The position numbers and the translations under genes are program-made. 64,000 bases of DNA from Planctomycetota bacterium (GTDB taxonomy: Bacteria; Planctomycetota; Planctomycetia; Pirellulales; Pirellulaceae). Below the pieces are notes generated by a model that was given only the letters and a program-made list of their open reading frames with translations, made no database searches and had not been told where the DNA came from. Location of the stretch: the NCBI GenBank assembly GCA_027622275.1, contig JAQBZB010000010.1, positions 2,598 to 66,597 of the forward strand, read 5' to 3'. Below, piece by piece: positions 22,810 to 27,132 of the stretch (within the stretch, counting starts at the first letter, position 1; each line of letters starts with the position of its first letter).

Positions 22810-22948
22810 CCGAAAACAACCTGAGAAGCGGGAGGAGGGTCAATTACCCATCCGATTGCCCGATCGGCCGAGTGACCAACTGGTAGTGTCTTAAAGTTGA
22901 GGGGAGACTTTTAGAGAGCCTCACTTGCGGAGCAATGGCCAACAATCG

Positions 22949-23761
22949 TTAAGGCCTTTTCTTCTTTTTGTCGATCGCCTTCATTTGCTTGTTGGTGCCC
23001 TTCAGTTTCTTTTTGACCTGCCCAAGATTCTCTGCCGCCGGTAAGTCTTCTGGGCTTACTCCGCCAAGTTCCTGCATCGTCTTTCGGACCTTTTTTCCAA
23101 CTTCATGCGCGGCACTCTCCAAGTTTCGCTGTCCTCGAATGGCCTCGCGATCGATCTTTTCGGCAGTCTGTGTTATGCGAAACAAGTGTGCAGCGAGTTC
23201 TGCCTTTCCCATGCGATCAATCAGCTTATCGCTCTTACTAAGGCCCTTGTAAGTCATGAGCCGCTGTAGGGTCATGTTGTACATTCCCATGTAGCCCTTG
23301 TTCTGAAAGAAAGCATAGTTTGTGACCCCATGCGATTTTGCAGTGCTGGCCAATGTCTTCTGGCCGTCCGTGACTTCGTCTCGAATCAAGAGCCTATCGA
23401 TCGCGTCGGCATGTTCCAGCGAGTTCTCAAACGTCTGGGCGAGCGTGGCGAAGTAGGCTTGCGCTGACGCCACTTCAGGTTTCTTTGTGTCGCCATTCAT
23501 CGCGACGAGATAGCAACCGAAGCGGGTAATAAAATGCTTCCCGTCGGTTTGCCTTAGAAAGTGATCCTCGCAGGGGATGTTTAACGAAAGGCACGCTTGC
23601 TTTGCTCGATTGATTGCCTTCTTGAACGACTGCTCCGTCTCGTATCCGAGCGATTGCATCACAACATCTTCGTGCCAATGCGTAGCCCCATTTTCGGTGG
23701 CGAGATCCTCGAAGCTCTTTTTGTCGTCGTCAAAATGGAAAAGTGTATCCGTCATTTCCAT
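22949..23761 (-). CDS. dinD: DNA-damage-inducible protein D homologue
   Basis: Collinear similarity to E. coli DinD as recalled: ...RFGCYLVAMNGD..KP.VA.AQ.YFA...; YAFFQNKGYMGMY; DRMG.AELAAHLFRITQTAEK; VGKKVRKTMQELGG..PEDLP. Confidence 0.85.
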   Translation of the reverse strand: MEMTDTLFHFDDDKKSFEDLATENGATHWHEDVVMQSLGYETEQSFKKAINRAKQACLSLNIPCEDHFLRQTDGKHFITRFGCYLVAMNGDTKKPEVASAQAYFATLAQTFENSLEHADAIDRLLIRDEVTDGQKTLASTAKSHGVTNYAFFQNKGYMGMYNMTLQRLMTYKGLSKSDKLIDRMGKAELAAHLFRITQTAEKIDREAIRGQRNLESAAHEVGKKVRKTMQELGGVSPEDLPAAENLGQVKKKLKGTNKQMKAIDKKKKRP

Positions 23762-23799
23762 GCTCTCCCGTGATGCGAATAACGGGAGATTGTAGCAGA

Positions 23800-24834
23800 T
23801 TATCCGGGTTGATTCAGGACGGATTCAAACAGCTCGTCAAAGCTCCAGACGTGGCCCGCCAATTTCGCCATCATAGCCGCGCTGGGCCGCTTCTCACCAG
23901 ACTTTCCCGGCTTCCGGGTCTGCCAGCAGAAGTTGTAGTAGGCGGCGAACATACCGAAGGCGGCTTCCAGGTTCTCCAGTTTCTTCGAGAAGCACAGCGT
24001 TAGCCGATTCAGCCGCTTCATAAAGACTCGCTGAGTTCCGTTCAATCGTTCGACGTGGCTAGTTCCTATCGTGTAAAGCTCCCGGCCCTCTATGCCTCGG
24101 ATGCCTTCCCGCTTGGTGCCCACCATTTCGTTTGGATCGTACTTCATGGTGGCGTTCTTGTATTCCTTGATGATCGTCCCGTACTTGGCGTAGGGGCCAA
24201 ACGCGAGGTCAACGGCTTCTGGGTACCCAGCCCAACCATCGGTGCTGATTTGAACGATGGCCCGGTAGCCGCCTTTGGCAAATGCGTGGGCATCGCTGGA
24301 ATGCGGAGCCGGTCGGGCCAGCCGCTTTGACACGTCCATTAGAAACCGGCGTGCGTTGTCGGCAGACCGCTTGCCGATCAGGAACGATGGCATCAGCTTG
24401 GTTTGCTGGTCGATGCACGTCCACAAATAAACGTCGCCGATGTCATGACAAGTCGCCTTCTCTTCGATGGTCAACCGAGCTTGCTTCTTAGCCACAAACG
24501 TCCATTGCTCATCGAACTGCAAGTGGGTGAGCTTAAGTCCGTGCATCCGATCGTCAAGGAACTTCCGGCAGGCCGTTCCGAACAGGACGATCAACTTGCA
24601 AAGCGTGTTGCGGTTGATGCCAGTTGTCCGTTCGGTCGCGCGGATCGACATTCCTTCTGTCAACATCCGCAGGGCCAGTTTTGCCTTGGACAGATCAACC
24701 GTCATTTCTCCAAGCGGCTTGGGATCGAAGTCGGTGAAGCAAACTCCGCAGTCCTTGCACGTCCACCGTTGCTGGCCCTTACGATCCTTGCCCTTGCTGG
24801 TCTTTCTCTTGTGCTGGCATGTTGGAGCGATCAT
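23800..24834 (-). CDS. IS1-family DDE transposase (single ORF, N-terminal zinc-finger/HTH)
   Basis: WTCKDCGVCF zinc ribbon. FDEQWTFVAKK, ISTDGWAGYPEA and ERLNGTQRVFMKRLNRLTLCFSKKLENL parallel IS1 InsB motifs (DEqW.fV, TDGW..Y, ER.N...R....RL.RK.L.FSK). Confidence 0.8.
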   Translation of the reverse strand: MIAPTCQHKRKTSKGKDRKGQQRWTCKDCGVCFTDFDPKPLGEMTVDLSKAKLALRMLTEGMSIRATERTTGINRNTLCKLIVLFGTACRKFLDDRMHGLKLTHLQFDEQWTFVAKKQARLTIEEKATCHDIGDVYLWTCIDQQTKLMPSFLIGKRSADNARRFLMDVSKRLARPAPHSSDAHAFAKGGYRAIVQISTDGWAGYPEAVDLAFGPYAKYGTIIKEYKNATMKYDPNEMVGTKREGIRGIEGRELYTIGTSHVERLNGTQRVFMKRLNRLTLCFSKKLENLEAAFGMFAAYYNFCWQTRKPGKSGEKRPSAAMMAKLAGHVWSFDELFESVLNQPG

Positions 24835-24968
24835 TTAAGCGAACCTTCCCAAGTTGGGGCGTTTCGCTTAGAATGCAATTGCTAGGTCGCATCTTGGCGA
24901 AAGCCGAGTGTGATTGATTCCCTGGGGCCGTTGACGCGGCCTCAGGGAACGCTTTTGACGAGGATAAA

Positions 24969-25052
24969 CGGAAGGTAGGGGAATCGAACCCATCCCTGGC
25001 AGGACTCTGGCGTTTATAAGACGCCCCGCTGCACCAGCAGCAACTACCTCCC
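24969..25052 (-). tRNA. Non-canonical tRNA-like gene, 9/3 acceptor/T-stem architecture (allo-tRNA-like), anticodon UAU, long variable arm
   Basis: Fold done by hand on the minus strand. Acceptor stem is 9 bp (1-9/75-83, one G-U), followed by a 1-nt linker. D stem is 6 bp (TGCTGC/GCAGCG) with the 4-nt loop TGGT. Anticodon stem is GGCGT/ACGCC with loop CTTATAA. The variable arm is 17 nt with a 4-bp stem. T stem is GGG/CCC with loop TTCGATT. The discriminator is G and there is no encoded CCA. The 7/5 canonical fold leaves a T-C mismatch and extra linker bases. Confidence 0.7.
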
Positions 25053-25354
25053 GGTTCTAAAGAGGTCGCCTTGCCCCAGTCGGGCCGCTCGGTTGCAAGT
25101 ATGCGAGCCCGCTGGGACTGACCTTCTGCGCTCTGCCTAACGGCGACCACTTCGACAGAGCTTGAACTTCTTCTCATTTCCTCAGCCTCCAGTACGATTA
25201 CTTACTTCCGACGTCAGGCATTATCGCCGCCTAGGCAAAGCCGGTATCTACGCATTTTTTTACCACTTGTCCTTGTAGTGTAATGCTGGTGCAGTATTAA
25301 AGTAGAAGTAGAGTAGCAGTAAAACAGAAATAGATTAACTAAGGAGATTGCAAG

Positions 25355-26188
25355 ATGGCCAAAAGTGGTGCGCAAGCGAAAGGCCCCAAGCCAACGAGGC
25401 AACGAAGTCCCAATTATCCAGCCATAGGATTAAGGACAGCGGTTGAAAAGGTGAAGTTGCTCTACGACAAGTATGGCCGGGAGAAGGTGCCATTGAAGCT
25501 GGCGTGCGAAGCAATGGGACACAAAACACTGAATAGCTTGTCTCAACAGTATGTGGCGGCATTAAAGGCGTACTCACTGATTCTGACTTATGGCACTGGA
25601 GATGAGAGGAGGGCGGCTGTCAGTGAAGCTGCCGAGCGGATTGTCAGGAATGCACCAAATCGTGCCGAACTCCTGAAAACTGCTGCTGTGGCACCGACAA
25701 TTCATGCCGAAGTCTGGGACCACTACGAAGGTCGTGGATTGCCACACGATGACCTCCTAAAGCAGTATCTTGTGTGGGATCGTCCCGATGGCTCTCGATT
25801 CACTGAAGATGCTGTAGACGGATTTATTGAGCGGTTTAGGGACACTTTGGACTTCTCAGAAGTGGCTCCAGGTGATAAACTTTCAGATAATGAGCAAGTT
25901 GATTCAGGCGATGAGAATGGTAATGGCTGCGATAGTGGTGGTGAAGATGAAGAAACAAACCAACACATTGGTGCTCCAAAGAACAAACGTCAGGAGCGAC
26001 GGCAAGTGATAGAAGGCGTAAAAGAAGCGACGTATCCAATGGCAACCGGGGAGATTTTCCTTCAGTGGCCATGTCGGATTTCGGCTGAAGAGGCCGAAGA
26101 TATTGTTGACTGGCTCGCGATCATGACTCGCAAGATCAAACGCTCGGTTGTGTCTGACGAGCCGGAAGAGCCGGAAGGCGACAGTTAG
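25355..26188 (+). CDS. Hypothetical protein (acidic C-terminal half), transposon passenger
   Basis: AAGGAG lies 7 nt upstream of the ATG and an AT-rich leader precedes it. 277-aa ORF with no antisense competitor of comparable quality. No family recognised. Confidence 0.6.
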   Translation: MAKSGAQAKGPKPTRQRSPNYPAIGLRTAVEKVKLLYDKYGREKVPLKLACEAMGHKTLNSLSQQYVAALKAYSLILTYGTGDERRAAVSEAAERIVRNAPNRAELLKTAAVAPTIHAEVWDHYEGRGLPHDDLLKQYLVWDRPDGSRFTEDAVDGFIERFRDTLDFSEVAPGDKLSDNEQVDSGDENGNGCDSGGEDEETNQHIGAPKNKRQERRQVIEGVKEATYPMATGEIFLQWPCRISAEEAEDIVDWLAIMTRKIKRSVVSDEPEEPEGDS

Positions 26189-26344
26189 TCTGCTGTCCAC
26201 TTGCCGTCCGCACCCTTAAACCGCTTCCGGTTTTTCCGCATTCCCCACACCAACGAATCGAGCGCCCCGCTTCGACCCTTGCTACAATGCCCCCATGCCC
26301 AGCGAGCGATGGCTGAGCATGTCGCTTCAAACAAGAGGTCTCAA

Positions 26345-26581
26345 ATGATCGAGGTGCGTAGATTTGACGTTTGTGCGTCTGACGGCACGCGATATGAGCT
26401 GGTCGAATTTGAAGAACGCATAATCACGAGTATCGGCGATTTTCCTCCACAATTCGGCACGCGGTCGCATTTTGCACTTAGTGATGGGACGCCCGCCAGT
26501 CGCAATACAATGTACGACGGCGATGCTGCAACCTATTCGATTCAACTTGAGCACGGAGAGATCATTTTGCGTCCGTGTTGA
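26345..26581 (+). CDS. Small hypothetical protein, transposon passenger
   Basis: AAGAGG lies 8 nt upstream of ATG 26345. The ORF-track start 26201 and ATG 26309 are also possible. No family recognised. Confidence 0.4.
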   Translation: MIEVRRFDVCASDGTRYELVEFEERIITSIGDFPPQFGTRSHFALSDGTPASRNTMYDGDAATYSIQLEHGEIILRPC

Positions 26582-26710
26582 CTCCGAGCGTCTCGCCAAA
26601 TAGCCCCTCAACTGTCTCCCCTCAACTTTAAGACACTACCGACCAACTTGCTCGCTCGGTTGCTGCTGGTTTTCCGTGTACAATTGGTGGTGAGTTGCCA
26701 GGAGATCGGC

Positions 26711-26914
26711 ATGCCCAAGAAGATCCGTGAATTGAAGAGTATGCTTCAGCGAGCGGGCTTCGTAATGCGTGCGGGAAAGGGCAGCCACACGGTCTGGTCA
26801 CATGCCAAGTTGGAAGAGTCGATTACCGTCTCTGGCCGCGATGGCGATGACGCCAAGCCCTATCAGGAAAAGGATGTCCGCCAGATCATCAGGAAAGCGG
26901 AGGAATCCCCATGA
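26711..26914 (+). CDS. hicA: HicA-family mRNA-interferase toxin
   Basis: MPKKIRELKSMLQRAGFVMRAGKGSHTVWSH is the YcfA/HicA signature (KGSH). GGAGA SD. Overlaps hicB by ATGA. Confidence 0.85.
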   Translation: MPKKIRELKSMLQRAGFVMRAGKGSHTVWSHAKLEESITVSGRDGDDAKPYQEKDVRQIIRKAEESP

Positions 26915-27132
26915 CGTCCCGATATCGCATGCTCATCGAGTGGTCTGAGGAAGACCAAGTCTTTGTCGTCACGCTGCCGGAGTTTCCGTGCAATCGAACG
27001 CACGGAGCAACGTACGAAGAAGCGGCCAAGAACGGCAAAGAAGTACTCGAACTGCTGATCGAAACGTGGGAGCAGGATGGCCGCCCGCTGCCTCCGCCCC
27101 AGTTCTTCGTGTCCGACTCCGTTTCGGCATGA
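26911..27132 (+). CDS. hicB: HicB-family antitoxin (UPF0150 fold only, no obvious DNA-binding tail)
   Basis: YRMLIEWSEEDQVFVVTLPEFPCNRTHGATYEEAAKNGKEVLELLIE is typical of the HicB N-domain. Confidence 0.8.
   Translation: MTSRYRMLIEWSEEDQVFVVTLPEFPCNRTHGATYEEAAKNGKEVLELLIETWEQDGRPLPPPQFFVSDSVSA

What the first reader, a model, noticed from the sequence alone, without database searches (positions are those of the whole stretch)
22874..26648. Intact 3.76-kb IS1-family transposon with 27-bp perfect IRs, 8-bp target duplication and four passenger genes
GGTAGTGTCTTAAAGTTGAGGGGAGAC (22882-22908) is exactly reverse-complemented at 26614-26640. Both ends are abutted by GACCAACT (22874-22881 and 26641-26648). 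The GGTAGTG terminus and 8-9-bp duplication fit IS1-type elements, and the only transposase inside (23800..24834) has IS1 InsB-like motifs. The element is about five times longer than a normal IS1. It carries dinD, the odd tRNA, a 277-aa acidic protein and a 78-aa protein, and its G+C looks lower than that of the flanks. Perfect IRs and an intact duplication suggest a recent insertion, between the phosphohexomutase gene and hicAB.
Basis: seen in the sequence. Interest (0 to 1): 0.7.

Follow-up and report, generated by a model that had tools for sequence, protein, structure and literature searches.

The report
Transposon carrying its own AUA-reading tRNA
This is a real 3.76-kb IS1-family jumping gene in a planctomycete genome, and its "odd tRNA" is not cargo: it is a conserved part of a large transposon family whose transposase genes keep the rare codon AUA, which that tRNA reads, at fixed positions.

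Summary
There are 27/27-bp inverted repeats (22882-22908 and 26614-26640), an 8-bp duplication (GACCAACT), an IS1-type transposase, and the lowest G+C of any block this size in the window.

The interpretation needs revision. Relatives (about 80 genome loci and 120 metagenome loci) form a planctomycete clade of 2.5-7-kb cargo-carrying IS1 elements. They have GGTAGTG termini and 8-bp duplications at different sites. The cargo varies and is mostly restriction-modification or toxin-antitoxin genes.

The conserved core is a tRNA-like gene with anticodon UAU (here a 9/3 "allo-tRNA"), then a small antisense ribbon-helix-helix (RHH) gene, then a promoter and leader, then the transposase.

The transposase genes fix the host's rarest Ile codon, ATA, at two positions: codon 256 (55 of 56 Ile codons) and codon 248 (45 of 46). 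Other conserved Ile columns have none.

An unrelated IS4-family transposase linked to the same cassette also fixes ATA (9/9). IS1 outgroups without the tRNA do not.

Best reading: a private tRNA-codon pair controls transposase synthesis. The amino acid delivered is unresolved.

The window copy lacks the RHH gene and the promoter. No empty site was found.

The parts
22874..22881 (.). Target-site duplication, copy 1 (GACCAACT)
   Evidence: Read directly. It is identical to 26641-26648. At least 27 relatives have different 8-bp duplications.
22882..22908 (+). Terminal inverted repeat at the end downstream of the transposase (GGTAGTGTCTTAAAGTTGAGGGGAGAC)
   Evidence: 27/27 complementary to 26614-26640. 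No other copy in the window, and none in 100 shuffles. The GGTAGTG terminus is shared by relatives.
22949..23761 (-). Passenger gene: 270-aa Bro-N / DinD-like protein, 38 nt downstream of the transposase on the same strand
   Evidence: Pfam Bro-N 2.3e-7. NCBIfam DNA damage-inducible protein D 1e-57, 195.7 bits, below the cut-off of 242. PHROG 8036 2e-81. Absent from the 79 related loci.
23800..24834 (-). IS1-family transposase, single 344-aa ORF (Zn-binding N-terminus, HTH, DDE-type C-terminal domain)
   Evidence: Pfam PF03400 26.9 bits, above the gathering cut-off of 24.1. NCBIfam IS1 72.4 bits, below the cut-off of 100. More than 1,449 homologues, many named IS1 family transposase. tblastn to annotated IS1-family genes at 24-37% identity.
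24091..24093 (-). Fixed AUA codon, Ile248 of the transposase
   Evidence: ATA in 45 of 46 Ile codons at this column across 60 genes. The alternatives are Met and Leu.
24067..24069 (-). Fixed AUA codon, Ile256, six codons before the conserved TSHVERLN glutamate
   Evidence: ATA 55, ATC 1, ATT 0 and Val 2 across 60 genes. ATA in 25 of 36 metagenomic genes, down to about 35% identity. Outgroups without the tRNA have GTT, ATC or CTG.
24835..24956 (-). Conserved transposase leader (5' UTR) with a hairpin (about 24919-24946) and the blocks CGGCTTTCGCC and CATTCTAAGCGA
   Evidence: Aligns with the leader of 24 relatives. No Rfam family matches.
24957..24967 (-). Junction where relatives carry about 270 bp more (antisense RHH gene plus TTGAC-N17-TACAAT promoter). 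The tRNA-to-ATG distance is 133 nt here and 360-430 nt in relatives.
   Evidence: The 91%-identical relative still has the 60-aa antisense gene.
24968..25053 (-). tRNA-like gene: 9/3 allo-tRNA with anticodon UAU (25016-25018), G3:U70, discriminator G, long variable arm, no encoded CCA
   Evidence: ARAGORN calls tRNA-Ile(tat), 86 nt. The best Rfam match is tRNA-Sec, 46.8 bits against a gathering score of 47, showing a 9-bp acceptor, a 6-bp D stem with a 4-nt loop and a 3-bp T stem. MFE -39.1 kcal/mol, z -3.3. Family covariation: 93% of cells paired against 75% in shuffles, and 19 of 22 pairs compensated.
25054..25354 (.). Divergent intergenic region between the tRNA and the 277-aa gene. It is partly conserved, including a hairpin, in the two other elements with a 277-aa homologue.
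   Evidence: Alignment with L054 and L062. No sigma-70-like promoter beyond chance.
25355..26188 (+). Passenger or accessory gene: 277-aa protein with an acidic C-terminal half, function unknown
   Evidence: No Pfam, NCBIfam or PHROG family. Only 8 homologues among 5.8 billion proteins. Homologues sit at the same position in L054 and L062.
26345..26581 (+). Passenger ORF: 78 aa, function unknown
   Evidence: Called as a gene in two public assemblies. No family match and no homologue in related loci.
26614..26640 (-). Terminal inverted repeat at the end upstream of the tRNA
26641..26648 (.). Target-site duplication, copy 2 (GACCAACT)

Best explanation
The element is a mobile, cargo-carrying member of a large planctomycete clade of IS1-family transposons. 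Its 'odd tRNA' belongs to the clade's conserved control cassette. The full cassette is a UAU-anticodon tRNA-like gene, then a small antisense RHH repressor-like gene, then a sigma-70-type promoter and structured leader, then the transposase.

The transposase mRNA keeps the host's rarest isoleucine codon, AUA, at two fixed positions (248 and 256) just upstream of the catalytic-glutamate motif. I propose that the element-borne tRNA decodes these AUA codons. The yield of active transposase would then depend on the supply of the element's own tRNA. This is a private codon-tRNA pair, working like bldA/UUA control in Streptomyces.

Shown: the anatomy, the mobility of the clade, the two-way tRNA-transposase linkage, and the position-specific ATA fixation, which is replicated in a second transposase family.

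Inferred: that the tRNA is expressed, charged and used on ribosomes, and the direction of control. I favour a positive gate or pause, with Ile-compatible decoding. The amino acid delivered (Ile through the anticodon, or Ser/Ala through the tRNA body) is unresolved.

In this window copy the RHH gene and the transposase promoter are deleted. The transposase could therefore only be transcribed together with the tRNA.
For: Mobility and family membership:
- IRs plus an 8-bp duplication here.
- At least 27 relatives have GGTAGTG termini and different 8-bp duplications, with lengths of 2.5-7 kb.
- IS1 family hits.

tRNA linkage, starting from the transposase:
- A covariance model built from 10 tRNA-like genes finds a strong match (57-97 bits) on the same strand in 44 of 79 related loci, about 400 nt upstream of the transposase in nearly all of them.
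- Weaker matches of other tRNA body types lie at the same place in about 10 more loci.
- UAU is kept in virtually all of them.

tRNA linkage, starting from the tRNA:
- A transposase-blind pattern search for the tRNA returned 120 metagenome loci, 84 of them allo-type.
- Of 59 allo-type loci with at least 700 nt downstream, 48 have an IS1-like transposase at the canonical distance. These share 30-77% identity with the window protein.

tRNA structure:
- 93% of cells paired against 75% in shuffles, and 19 of 22 pairs with compensatory changes.
- Canonical anticodon loop YU-UAU-AA and T loop.

Codon evidence:
- ATA makes up 23% of Ile codons in 60 transposase genes, against 6.4% in the window's long ORFs.
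- Column 256 has ATA 55, ATC 1, ATT 0. Column 248 has ATA 45, ATT 1, ATC 0.
- Ten other conserved Ile columns have 0 ATA.
- Neighbouring codons have 1.3-2.0 bits of synonymous entropy. All other low-entropy columns are fixed on the preferred C- or G-ending codons.
- The window gene has 13 ATC, 0 ATT and exactly 2 ATA, at these two positions.

Independent replicate:
- IS4-family transposases sit about 400 nt downstream of the same tRNA+RHH cassette in L131, L174, L206, L207 and L210.
- They fix ATA at one column in 9 of 9 genes and at a second column in 5 of 9. Eight other conserved Ile columns have 0 ATA.

Negative control:
- IS1-family transposases on Methylocapsa, Hoeflea and Meiothermus plasmids have no tRNA-like gene nearby. 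At the position of codon 256 they have GTT, ATC and CTG.

Literature:
Against: - There are no expression, processing or aminoacylation data.
- The tRNA bodies look like substrates of the anticodon-blind synthetases. Most have a Ser-like acceptor (GGAGAG...CUCUCC plus G73) and a long variable arm. The window copy and the short class-I forms have G3:U70. That argues for missense decoding, not plain Ile decoding.
- In the only experiment published, six allo-tRNA(UAU) converted to CUA did not insert Ser in E. coli, and two were toxic.
- About 10 intact relatives have no detectable tRNA yet keep the ATA codons. They would need supply in trans.
- A single synonymous change (ATA to ATC) would abolish any such control, so the selective reason for 98% conservation is not explained.
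- The host itself uses AUA (0.3% of codons), so it must already have a decoder.
- ACG precedes ATA at two columns in more than 90% of genes. A nucleotide-level motif is therefore not fully excluded.
- The related sequences are not phylogenetically independent.
Confidence: 0.6

Rival explanations
1. Deliberate missense decoding. The tRNA is charged with Ser or Ala by SerRS or AlaRS, which ignore the anticodon, and inserts a small residue at the fixed AUA codons. This would either poison the transposase in proportion to element copy number (multicopy inhibition) or produce a second, required protein form.
For: All tRNA body types found belong to the Ser or Ala identity classes. Most have G1-C72, G2-C71, A3-U70, G73 and a long variable arm. 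The class-II forms have a Ser-like D arm. The short forms have a GGGGC... acceptor, G3:U70 and A73. The window copy has G3:U70. Other allo-tRNAs do insert Ser or Ala at non-cognate codons in E. coli (PMC5389517). AUA is the codon whose reassignment would hurt a GC-rich host least.
Against: Where lineages have lost ATA at column 256 they use ATC, ATT or GTC (12 cases), Ala once, and never Ser. Outgroups have V, I or L there. ATA interchanges freely with ATC/ATT at the otherwise invariant Ile221, so AUA behaves as an Ile codon over evolution. Six allo-tRNA(UAU)-to-CUA variants did not insert Ser in E. coli. Proteome-wide AUA mistranslation would be costly.
Confidence: 0.25
2. The tRNA-like RNA has no role in decoding. 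It is a structural or processing element: an RNase P/Z cleavage site, a terminator or insulator between the convergent tRNA and RHH transcripts, or a regulatory non-coding RNA. On this view the ATA conservation has another cause.
For: The RHH stop codon abuts the tRNA 3' end in most relatives. In the window the tRNA is fused to the transposase leader. Mukai et al. suggested that most allo-tRNA(UAU) 'are not used for translation'. Some copies have destabilised stems.
Against: A processing signal would not need an invariant UAU anticodon in a canonical 7-nt loop across four different tRNA body types. It would not need a T loop whose 54-58 pair covaries. It would not predict fixation of exactly the cognate codon in two unrelated transposase families, nor its absence in outgroups.
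Confidence: 0.12
3. Plain codon-usage compensation, as with phage tRNA genes. The lower-G+C element uses more AUA than its host and brings a decoder along. There is no regulatory meaning.
For: The element's G+C is 0.527 against 0.59 for the host. ATA is 14-23% of Ile codons in element genes against 6.4% in host ORFs.
Against: This does not explain the position specificity: 98% ATA at two columns and 0% at ten other conserved Ile columns. It does not explain why the window transposase otherwise uses only ATC. The RHH gene and the cargo genes show no fixed ATA positions.
Confidence: 0.08
4. One reading: the tRNA is one of four accidental passenger genes picked up by an unusually long IS1.
For: It lies inside the IRs alongside genes that really are variable cargo.
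Against: The tRNA is conserved in position, strand and anticodon in most of about 200 related loci, while all the other passengers vary.
Confidence: 0.02

Closest known systems
IS1 family insertion sequences (classical IS1 of E. coli; single-ORF IS1 subgroups and cargo-carrying 'transporter IS' as catalogued in ISfinder, recalled from memory)
   Same: IS1-type DDE transposase with an N-terminal zinc-binding/HTH part. Terminal IRs starting GGT..TG. An 8-bp target duplication. tblastn similarity to annotated IS1-family transposases.
   Different: 3.76 kb rather than 0.77 kb. One ORF, with no insA/insB' frameshift. Carries cargo. The clade has a tRNA(UAU)+RHH cassette and fixed AUA codons, which are not described for any IS as far as I could find.
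allo-tRNA(UAU) of Mukai et al. 2017 (Nucleic Acids Res 45:2776; PMC5389517)
   Same: 12-bp acceptor branch in the 9/3 form (8/4 in some relatives). tRNA-Sec-like D arm, long variable arm and UAU anticodon. Found in soil and sediment metagenomes near transposon-related and toxin-antitoxin-like genes.
   Different: The paper left the function open and assigned the contigs to Acidobacteria. Here the genes are placed inside defined IS1- and IS4-family transposons of Planctomycetota and tied to fixed AUA codons. The window tRNA also has G3:U70.
bldA tRNA-Leu(UAA) / rare TTA codon control in Streptomyces (established knowledge)
   Same: A GC-rich host, a very rare A/U-rich codon, a dedicated tRNA, and target genes that keep the rare codon at conserved positions, so that translation depends on tRNA supply.
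   Different: bldA is a chromosomal developmental regulator that inserts the cognate amino acid. Here both the tRNA and the target sit on a mobile element, and the tRNA body is of the Ser/Ala type. This is an analogy of mechanism only. Nothing was tested experimentally.
Ty1 +1 frameshifting set by the scarce tRNA-Arg(CCU) (established knowledge)
   Same: Transposition depends on the abundance of one tRNA reading one rare codon in the transposon's own mRNA.
   Different: Ty1 uses a host tRNA and a frameshift. No frameshift site is evident here, since the transposase is a single ORF.
tRNA genes carried by phages, and natural mistranslating tRNAs (e.g. tRNA-ProX/ProRSx of Streptomyces; from memory)
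   Same: Mobile or accessory tRNA genes that alter decoding in the host.
   Different: None of these is known to sit inside an insertion sequence or to be paired with fixed codons in a transposase.

Membership tests
IS1 family (insertion sequences) | Transposase with the IS1-type DDE catalytic domain | tested here: met
   Pfam PF03400 26.9 bits, above the gathering cut-off of 24.1, though only residues 258-298 match. NCBIfam NF033558 is the best family hit at 72.4 bits, below its cut-off of 100. tblastn to annotated IS1-family transposases at 24-37% identity.
IS1 family (insertion sequences) | N-terminal zinc-binding motif followed by an HTH | tested here: inconclusive
   NF050000 IS1/IS1595 Zn domain scores 23.1 bits, below the cut-off of 28. 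C6, H8, C26 and C29 are invariant in 25 homologues. The AF2 model shows strands at 11-34 and helices at 48-97 with pLDDT around 80.
IS1 family (insertion sequences) | Terminal inverted repeats of about 20-30 bp beginning GGT..TG | tested here: met
   27/27 bp, GGTAGTG.... The same terminus occurs in at least 27 relatives.
IS1 family (insertion sequences) | Target duplication of 8-9 bp | tested here: met
   8 bp here. 8 bp, with different sequences, in relatives.
IS1 family (insertion sequences) | Classical organisation: insA plus insB' joined by a -1 frameshift, about 770 bp | tested here: not met
   A single 344-aa ORF in a 3,759-bp element. From memory, single-ORF and long IS1 subgroups are accepted by ISfinder. 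So this rules out 'classical IS1', not the family.
allo-tRNA (Mukai et al. 2017) | 12-bp acceptor branch split 9/3 or 8/4 instead of 7/5 | tested here: met
   9-bp acceptor plus 3-bp T stem in the Rfam alignment, the RNAalifold consensus and the MFE fold.
allo-tRNA (Mukai et al. 2017) | tRNA-Sec-like D arm (6-bp stem, 4-nt loop) and long variable arm | tested here: met
allo-tRNA (Mukai et al. 2017) | Anticodon that does not match the identity of the tRNA body (UAU is the commonest group) | tested here: met
   UAU anticodon on a body with G3:U70, G73 and a long variable arm.
allo-tRNA (Mukai et al. 2017) | Aminoacylation (Ser/Ala) and use in translation | not testable with these tools
   Needs biochemistry. 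The published test of six UAU-to-CUA variants in E. coli was negative for Ser.
tRNA-Sec (Rfam RF01852) | UCA anticodon and a score above the gathering threshold | tested here: not met
   The anticodon is UAU. The score is 46.8 bits against a gathering score of 47.
Cargo-carrying ('transporter') IS | Passenger genes unrelated to transposition lie between the IRs and vary among relatives | tested here: met
   The DinD-like and 78-aa genes are absent from the 79 related loci and the 277-aa gene has homologues in only two of them. Cargo in 26 relatives includes DNA methylases, Mrr nucleases, PIN, Fic, Gp49, SocA and kinases.
Rare-codon/tRNA translational control (bldA-like; analogy, not a family) | The codon is rare in the host and fixed at conserved positions of the target gene | tested here: met
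   ATA is 57 of 888 Ile codons and 0.3% of all codons in the window's long ORFs. It is fixed at columns 248 and 256.
Rare-codon/tRNA translational control (bldA-like; analogy, not a family) | Translation of the target depends on the dedicated tRNA | not testable with these tools
   Needs reporter or transposition assays with tRNA deletion and ATA-to-ATC recoding.

The most novel reading that the evidence does not exclude
Two unrelated transposase families (IS1-type and IS4-type) in Planctomycetota share a portable cassette. Its Ser/Ala-bodied tRNA carries a UAU anticodon and acts as a private decoder for AUA codons fixed in the transposase gene. This would be a natural, mobile codon-tRNA pair that either recodes (Ile to Ser/Ala) or gates the transposase. 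It would also explain what the most abundant class of allo-tRNAs is for.
Probability: 0.35. Interest if true: 0.9.

Novelty: new variant of a known kind. Interest (0 to 1): 0.8.

Why it matters
Insertion sequences are known to limit their transposase by frameshifting, antisense RNA, repressors or methylation. None is known to carry its own tRNA matched to codons fixed in its transposase.

If the link is functional, it is a new principle of transposition control and a natural example of a private codon-tRNA pair on a mobile element.

It would also give a concrete, testable function to allo-tRNA(UAU). This is the commonest of the non-canonical 8/4 and 9/3 tRNAs that are already used as chassis in genetic-code engineering, and its biology has been open since 2017.

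The cassette's presence with two transposase families suggests a module that could be transplanted. The cargo of the clade (restriction-modification, toxin-antitoxin, DinD-like genes) marks these elements as vehicles for defence-type genes in Planctomycetota.

Tried and rejected
- Empty site. The exact phosphohexomutase, HicB and transposase proteins occur only on two assemblies of this same locus. The Logan contigs simply break at the IR. An exact 27-nt empty-site string found nothing in the JGI metagenomes. Recency of insertion therefore stays unproven.
- Other copies. There is no second copy or solo IR in the window.
- Guide-RNA idea. The anticodon arm (GUCUUAUAAAC) resembles the IR (GTCTTAAAG), but the two do not co-vary in relatives. 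Rejected.
- tRNA-Sec. Rejected on the anticodon and the score.
- Fixed ATA in the RHH gene. Not found.
- Structure. The AlphaFold2 model of the transposase is too poor to place residues 248 and 256 (mean pLDDT 60, below 50 for residues 222-266). I therefore ran no fold search.
- Sigma-70 promoter scan. It found nothing above chance in front of the tRNA or the transposase in the window.
- Literature. Searches for 'ISMhu11', IS1 + tRNA + AUA codon, and tRNA-like + transposase found no prior description. The supplements of Mukai et al. are not held.
- 277-aa and 78-aa proteins. No family match. Only 8 homologues of the 277-aa protein.

Full report
OBSERVATION

The 27-nt sequence GGTAGTGTCTTAAAGTTGAGGGGAGAC at 22882-22908 is exactly reverse-complemented at 26614-26640. 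With up to three mismatches these are the only two occurrences in the 64-kb window, and 100 dinucleotide-preserving shuffles gave none. GACCAACT abuts both outer ends, at 22874-22881 and 26641-26648.

The 3,759-bp block has G+C 0.527, against 0.597 and 0.594 in the 5-kb flanks. It is the lowest-G+C block of its size in the window. It lies 65 nt after a PGM/PMM-type phosphohexomutase gene and about 70 nt before hicA/hicB.

CONTENT OF THE ELEMENT

Listed in the orientation of the transposase, which is on the window's minus strand:
- IR.
- 78-aa ORF (antisense).
- 277-aa ORF (antisense).
- A tRNA-like gene (24968-25053).
- A 133-nt leader.
- A 344-aa transposase (24834-23800).
- A 270-aa Bro-N protein, 38 nt further on.
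- IR.

The transposase passes Pfam's gathering threshold for DDE_Tnp_IS1 (26.9 bits against 24.1), although only over residues 258-298. NCBIfam's IS1 model is its best family hit (72.4 bits, below the cut-off of 100). The IS1/IS1595 zinc domain scores 23.1 bits, below its cut-off of 28. tblastn reaches genes annotated 'IS1 family transposase' in Hoeflea, Deinococcus and Salinibacter plasmids at 24-37% identity.

The Bro-N protein matches NCBIfam DinD at 1e-57 (below the equivalog cut-off) and PHROG 8036 at 2e-81. The 277-aa and 78-aa proteins match no family. The 277-aa protein has only eight homologues among 5.8 billion proteins.

THE ELEMENT BELONGS TO A LARGE MOBILE CLADE

The transposase has more than 1,449 homologues, almost all from Planctomycetota MAGs and metagenomes. 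I fetched 79 related genome loci. At least 27 of them have inverted repeats that start GGTAGTG and are flanked by 8-bp direct repeats of different sequence. Their element lengths run from 2.5 to 7.0 kb.

This shows that the clade transposes with 8-bp duplications. It also shows that a length of several kilobases is normal for it.

The cargo differs from element to element. The DinD-like and 78-aa genes occur in none of the 79 loci. The 277-aa gene occurs in two, at the same position. A Pfam scan of 93 cargo ORFs from 26 elements found DNA methylases, Mrr-type nucleases, PIN, Fic, Gp49 and SocA domains, and protein kinases. The 91%-identical relative carries a PemK toxin pair.

THE tRNA IS CORE, NOT CARGO

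ARAGORN calls the gene tRNA-Ile(UAU), 86 nt long. Rfam's best match is tRNA-Sec at 46.8 bits, just below the gathering score of 47. That alignment shows a 9-bp acceptor stem, a 6-bp D stem with a 4-nt loop, a long variable arm and a 3-bp T stem. This is the 9/3 'allo-tRNA' architecture of Mukai et al. 2017 (PMC5389517). The minimum-free-energy fold agrees.

ARAGORN found similar UAU genes in ten related loci. A covariance model built from them gave the following over the 79 loci:
- Strong matches (57-97 bits) in 44 loci, on the transposase strand, 360-430 nt upstream of its start codon in nearly all.
- Weaker matches at the same place in nine more loci.

The weaker matches, plus three more found by eye, are other tRNA body types. 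They include class-II tRNAs with a Ser-like D arm and 72-nt class-I tRNAs.

Across all types the anticodon loop is YU-UAU-AA. Base-pair counts support the cloverleaf: 93% of cells are paired against 75% in shuffles and at most 67% when partners are slid, and 19 of 22 pairs show compensatory changes. About ten genes have the T loop AUCGUAA instead of UUCGAUU, which swaps the 54-58 pair.

The reverse test did not use the transposase. Of the 59 allo-type loci with at least 700 nt downstream, 48 have an IS1-like transposase on the same strand at the canonical distance. Some of these share only 30-50% identity with the window protein. Three others are followed by an IS4-family transposase instead.

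THE REST OF THE CASSETTE, AND WHAT THE WINDOW COPY LACKS

In relatives, the roughly 400 nt between tRNA and transposase contain the following:
- A 52-71-aa antisense gene (M..RGRPPK...IRLT..E..L..AA..STWAR..LL.AA.R). It gives weak NikA-like, RHH_1 and TacA hits, which fit a ribbon-helix-helix DNA-binding protein. Its stop codon abuts the tRNA 3' end.
- A TTGAC-N17-TACAAT promoter.
- A conserved leader.

The window copy keeps the leader (24835-24956) but lacks the RHH gene and the promoter. Its closest relative still has the RHH gene. So the deletion is specific to this copy, and the transposase here can only be transcribed through the tRNA gene. 'Intact' therefore applies to the ends and to the transposase ORF, not to the control region.

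In 24 of 42 relatives an ECF-sigma-like motif (GAACC-N14-17-TGTC) lies 11-67 nt (mostly 40-65 nt) upstream of the tRNA. Only 1.9% of control windows have it. The window and the two other elements that carry the 277-aa gene have a different, mutually conserved upstream region.

FIXED AUA CODONS

ATA accounts for 195 of 859 Ile codons in 60 transposase genes. In the long ORFs of the window outside the element it accounts for 57 of 888. The excess is position-specific:

| Column (window numbering) | ATA | ATT | ATC | Other residues |
|---|---|---|---|---|
| 256 | 55 | 0 | 1 | 2 Val |
| 248 | 45 | 1 | 0 | 12 Met, 1 Leu |
| 221 | 25 | 4 | 28 | 1 Cys |
| 245 | 18 | 8 | 3 | variable column |
| Ten other conserved Ile columns | 0 | - | - | - |

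The two fixed columns have the lowest codon entropy in the gene together with columns fixed on preferred C- or G-ending codons. Their neighbours have 1.3-2.0 bits. The window gene has 13 ATC, 0 ATT and exactly two ATA, at 248 and 256. Both lie just before the conserved TSHVERLN motif.

In the independent metagenome set, column 256 is ATA in 25 of 36 genes, including genes of 35-55% identity. The replacements are ATC, ATT, GTC and one GCT.

Three IS1-family transposases on plasmids have no tRNA-like gene within 2.5 kb. At that position they have GTT, ATC and CTG.

The IS4-family transposases linked to the same cassette give an independent replicate. Nine genes of roughly 70-80% identity all have ATA at one column (REFx-I-x-I-E) and five of nine have it at the next Ile. 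Eight other conserved Ile columns have none. Three of seven loci that were chosen without regard to the tRNA carry the tRNA about 400 nt upstream.

The RHH genes show no fixed ATA position.

MECHANISM

A tRNA whose only invariant feature is the UAU anticodon is carried next to transposase genes of two unrelated families. Both families have fixed the cognate codon, which is otherwise avoided. The simplest account is that the tRNA decodes these codons, so transposase output is tied to the element's own tRNA. This resembles bldA/TTA control in Streptomyces.

The anatomy and statistics above are shown. Expression, charging and ribosomal use are inferred.

The amino acid is unresolved, because two lines of evidence disagree:
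- The bodies carry Ser-type features (GGAGAG/CUCUCC acceptor, G73, long variable arm) or Ala-type features (G3:U70, including the window copy). These are the two synthetases that ignore the anticodon, which points to missense decoding.
- ATA alternates only with ATC/ATT, Val, Met or Leu at these columns, and outgroups have V, I or L. This points to a hydrophobic residue in the active enzyme.

The published negative test changed the anticodon to CUA and required Ser. It says nothing about anticodon-dependent charging by IleRS.

I favour a positive gate or pause with Ile-compatible decoding. Missense self-inhibition or recoding is the main rival. A non-decoding RNA role and simple codon-usage compensation fit the position-specific data poorly.

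COMPARISON WITH WHAT IS KNOWN, AND NOVELTY

The element meets the tested IS1-family criteria except the classical two-ORF frameshift organisation and the small size. The tRNA meets the structural definition of an allo-tRNA and belongs to its most abundant, functionally unexplained UAU group.

[quoted passage not shown] The antitoxin-like RHH gene and the toxin-antitoxin cargo probably explain that remark.

Full-text searches found no description of a tRNA as a conserved part of an insertion sequence, or of fixed AUA codons in a transposase.

I rate the window element itself as a new variant of a known kind. The cassette, if functional, would be a new regulatory principle.

LIMITS

- No empty site was found.
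- About ten intact relatives lack a detectable tRNA.
- The related sequences are not independent samples.
- ACG precedes ATA at two columns in more than 90% of genes, which is unexplained.
- The structure model was too weak to use.

Noticed in passing
L131, L141, L174, L206, L207, L210 (IS4-family loci): The same tRNA(UAU)+RHH cassette sits about 400 nt upstream of IS4-family transposases. Those genes fix ATA at 'REFx-I-x-I-E' in 9 of 9 and 5 of 9 genes. The string ATA GAG GGC CGG is shared with the window's Ile248-EGR.
   Followed up: yes
relatives, 11-67 nt (mostly 40-65 nt) upstream of the tRNA (e.g. L021, L011, L058); not present in window 25054-25213: An ECF-sigma-like promoter motif, GAAC[CT]-N14-17-[TCG]GTC, occurs in 24 of 42 loci against 1.9% of control windows. 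This suggests the tRNA is transcribed by an alternative sigma factor, separately from the sigma-70-type transposase promoter.
   Followed up: partly
window 24835-24956 (minus strand) and the same region in 24 relatives: The transposase leader is conserved, with an A-run followed by a hairpin and the blocks CCAGGCTTTCGCC and CATTCTAGCGA. No Rfam family matches. It may be the RHH operator or a structured 5' UTR.
   Followed up: partly
L062, L050, L008, L025, L018, L056, L047, L057, L053, L059 (tRNA T loop): The T loop is AUCGUAA instead of UUCGAUU. The 54-58 reverse-Hoogsteen pair is swapped from U-A to A-U. This covariation argues that the tRNA's three-dimensional fold is under selection.
   Followed up: no
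window 24070-24072 plus 24067-24069; family columns 220/221 and 255/256: The codon before the ATA codon is ACG in 91-93% of genes at two columns, and Cys257 after it is always TGC. This is an unexplained codon-context or nucleotide motif (ACG-ATA-TGC).
   Followed up: partly
window about 25075-25125 (minus strand); L054, L062: The three elements that carry the 277-aa gene share a hairpin upstream of the tRNA (GTCCCAGCGGGC...GCCCGACTGGGGCAAGGCGA), with compensatory changes in L054.
   Followed up: partly
window 26711-27132: A hicA/hicB toxin-antitoxin pair lies directly outside the right end. The insertion sits about 70 nt upstream of hicA and may have displaced part of its promoter. The 88-aa TTG-start ORF from 26648 is probably spurious, since public gene calls start at 26711.
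   Followed up: no
L221-L223 (element 91% identical in transposase): The closest relative sits at a different site, between a prephenate dehydratase gene and rpmF. It carries DUF6941 and a PemK toxin pair as cargo, and it retains the 60-aa antisense RHH gene that the window copy lacks.
   Followed up: partly
L004 (record title: Solirubrobacterales MAG): One close relative (83% identity, near-identical IR) is on a contig binned as an actinobacterium. This is either mis-binning or transfer beyond Planctomycetota.
   Followed up: no
L107, L140, L148, L166, L191, L200 (metagenome loci): A different, recurrent UAU-anticodon tRNA-like sequence (…GCGCCAGCACUGGCGUGCGG…) turned up in the pattern search. 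It has no transposase downstream and its context is unknown.
   Followed up: no
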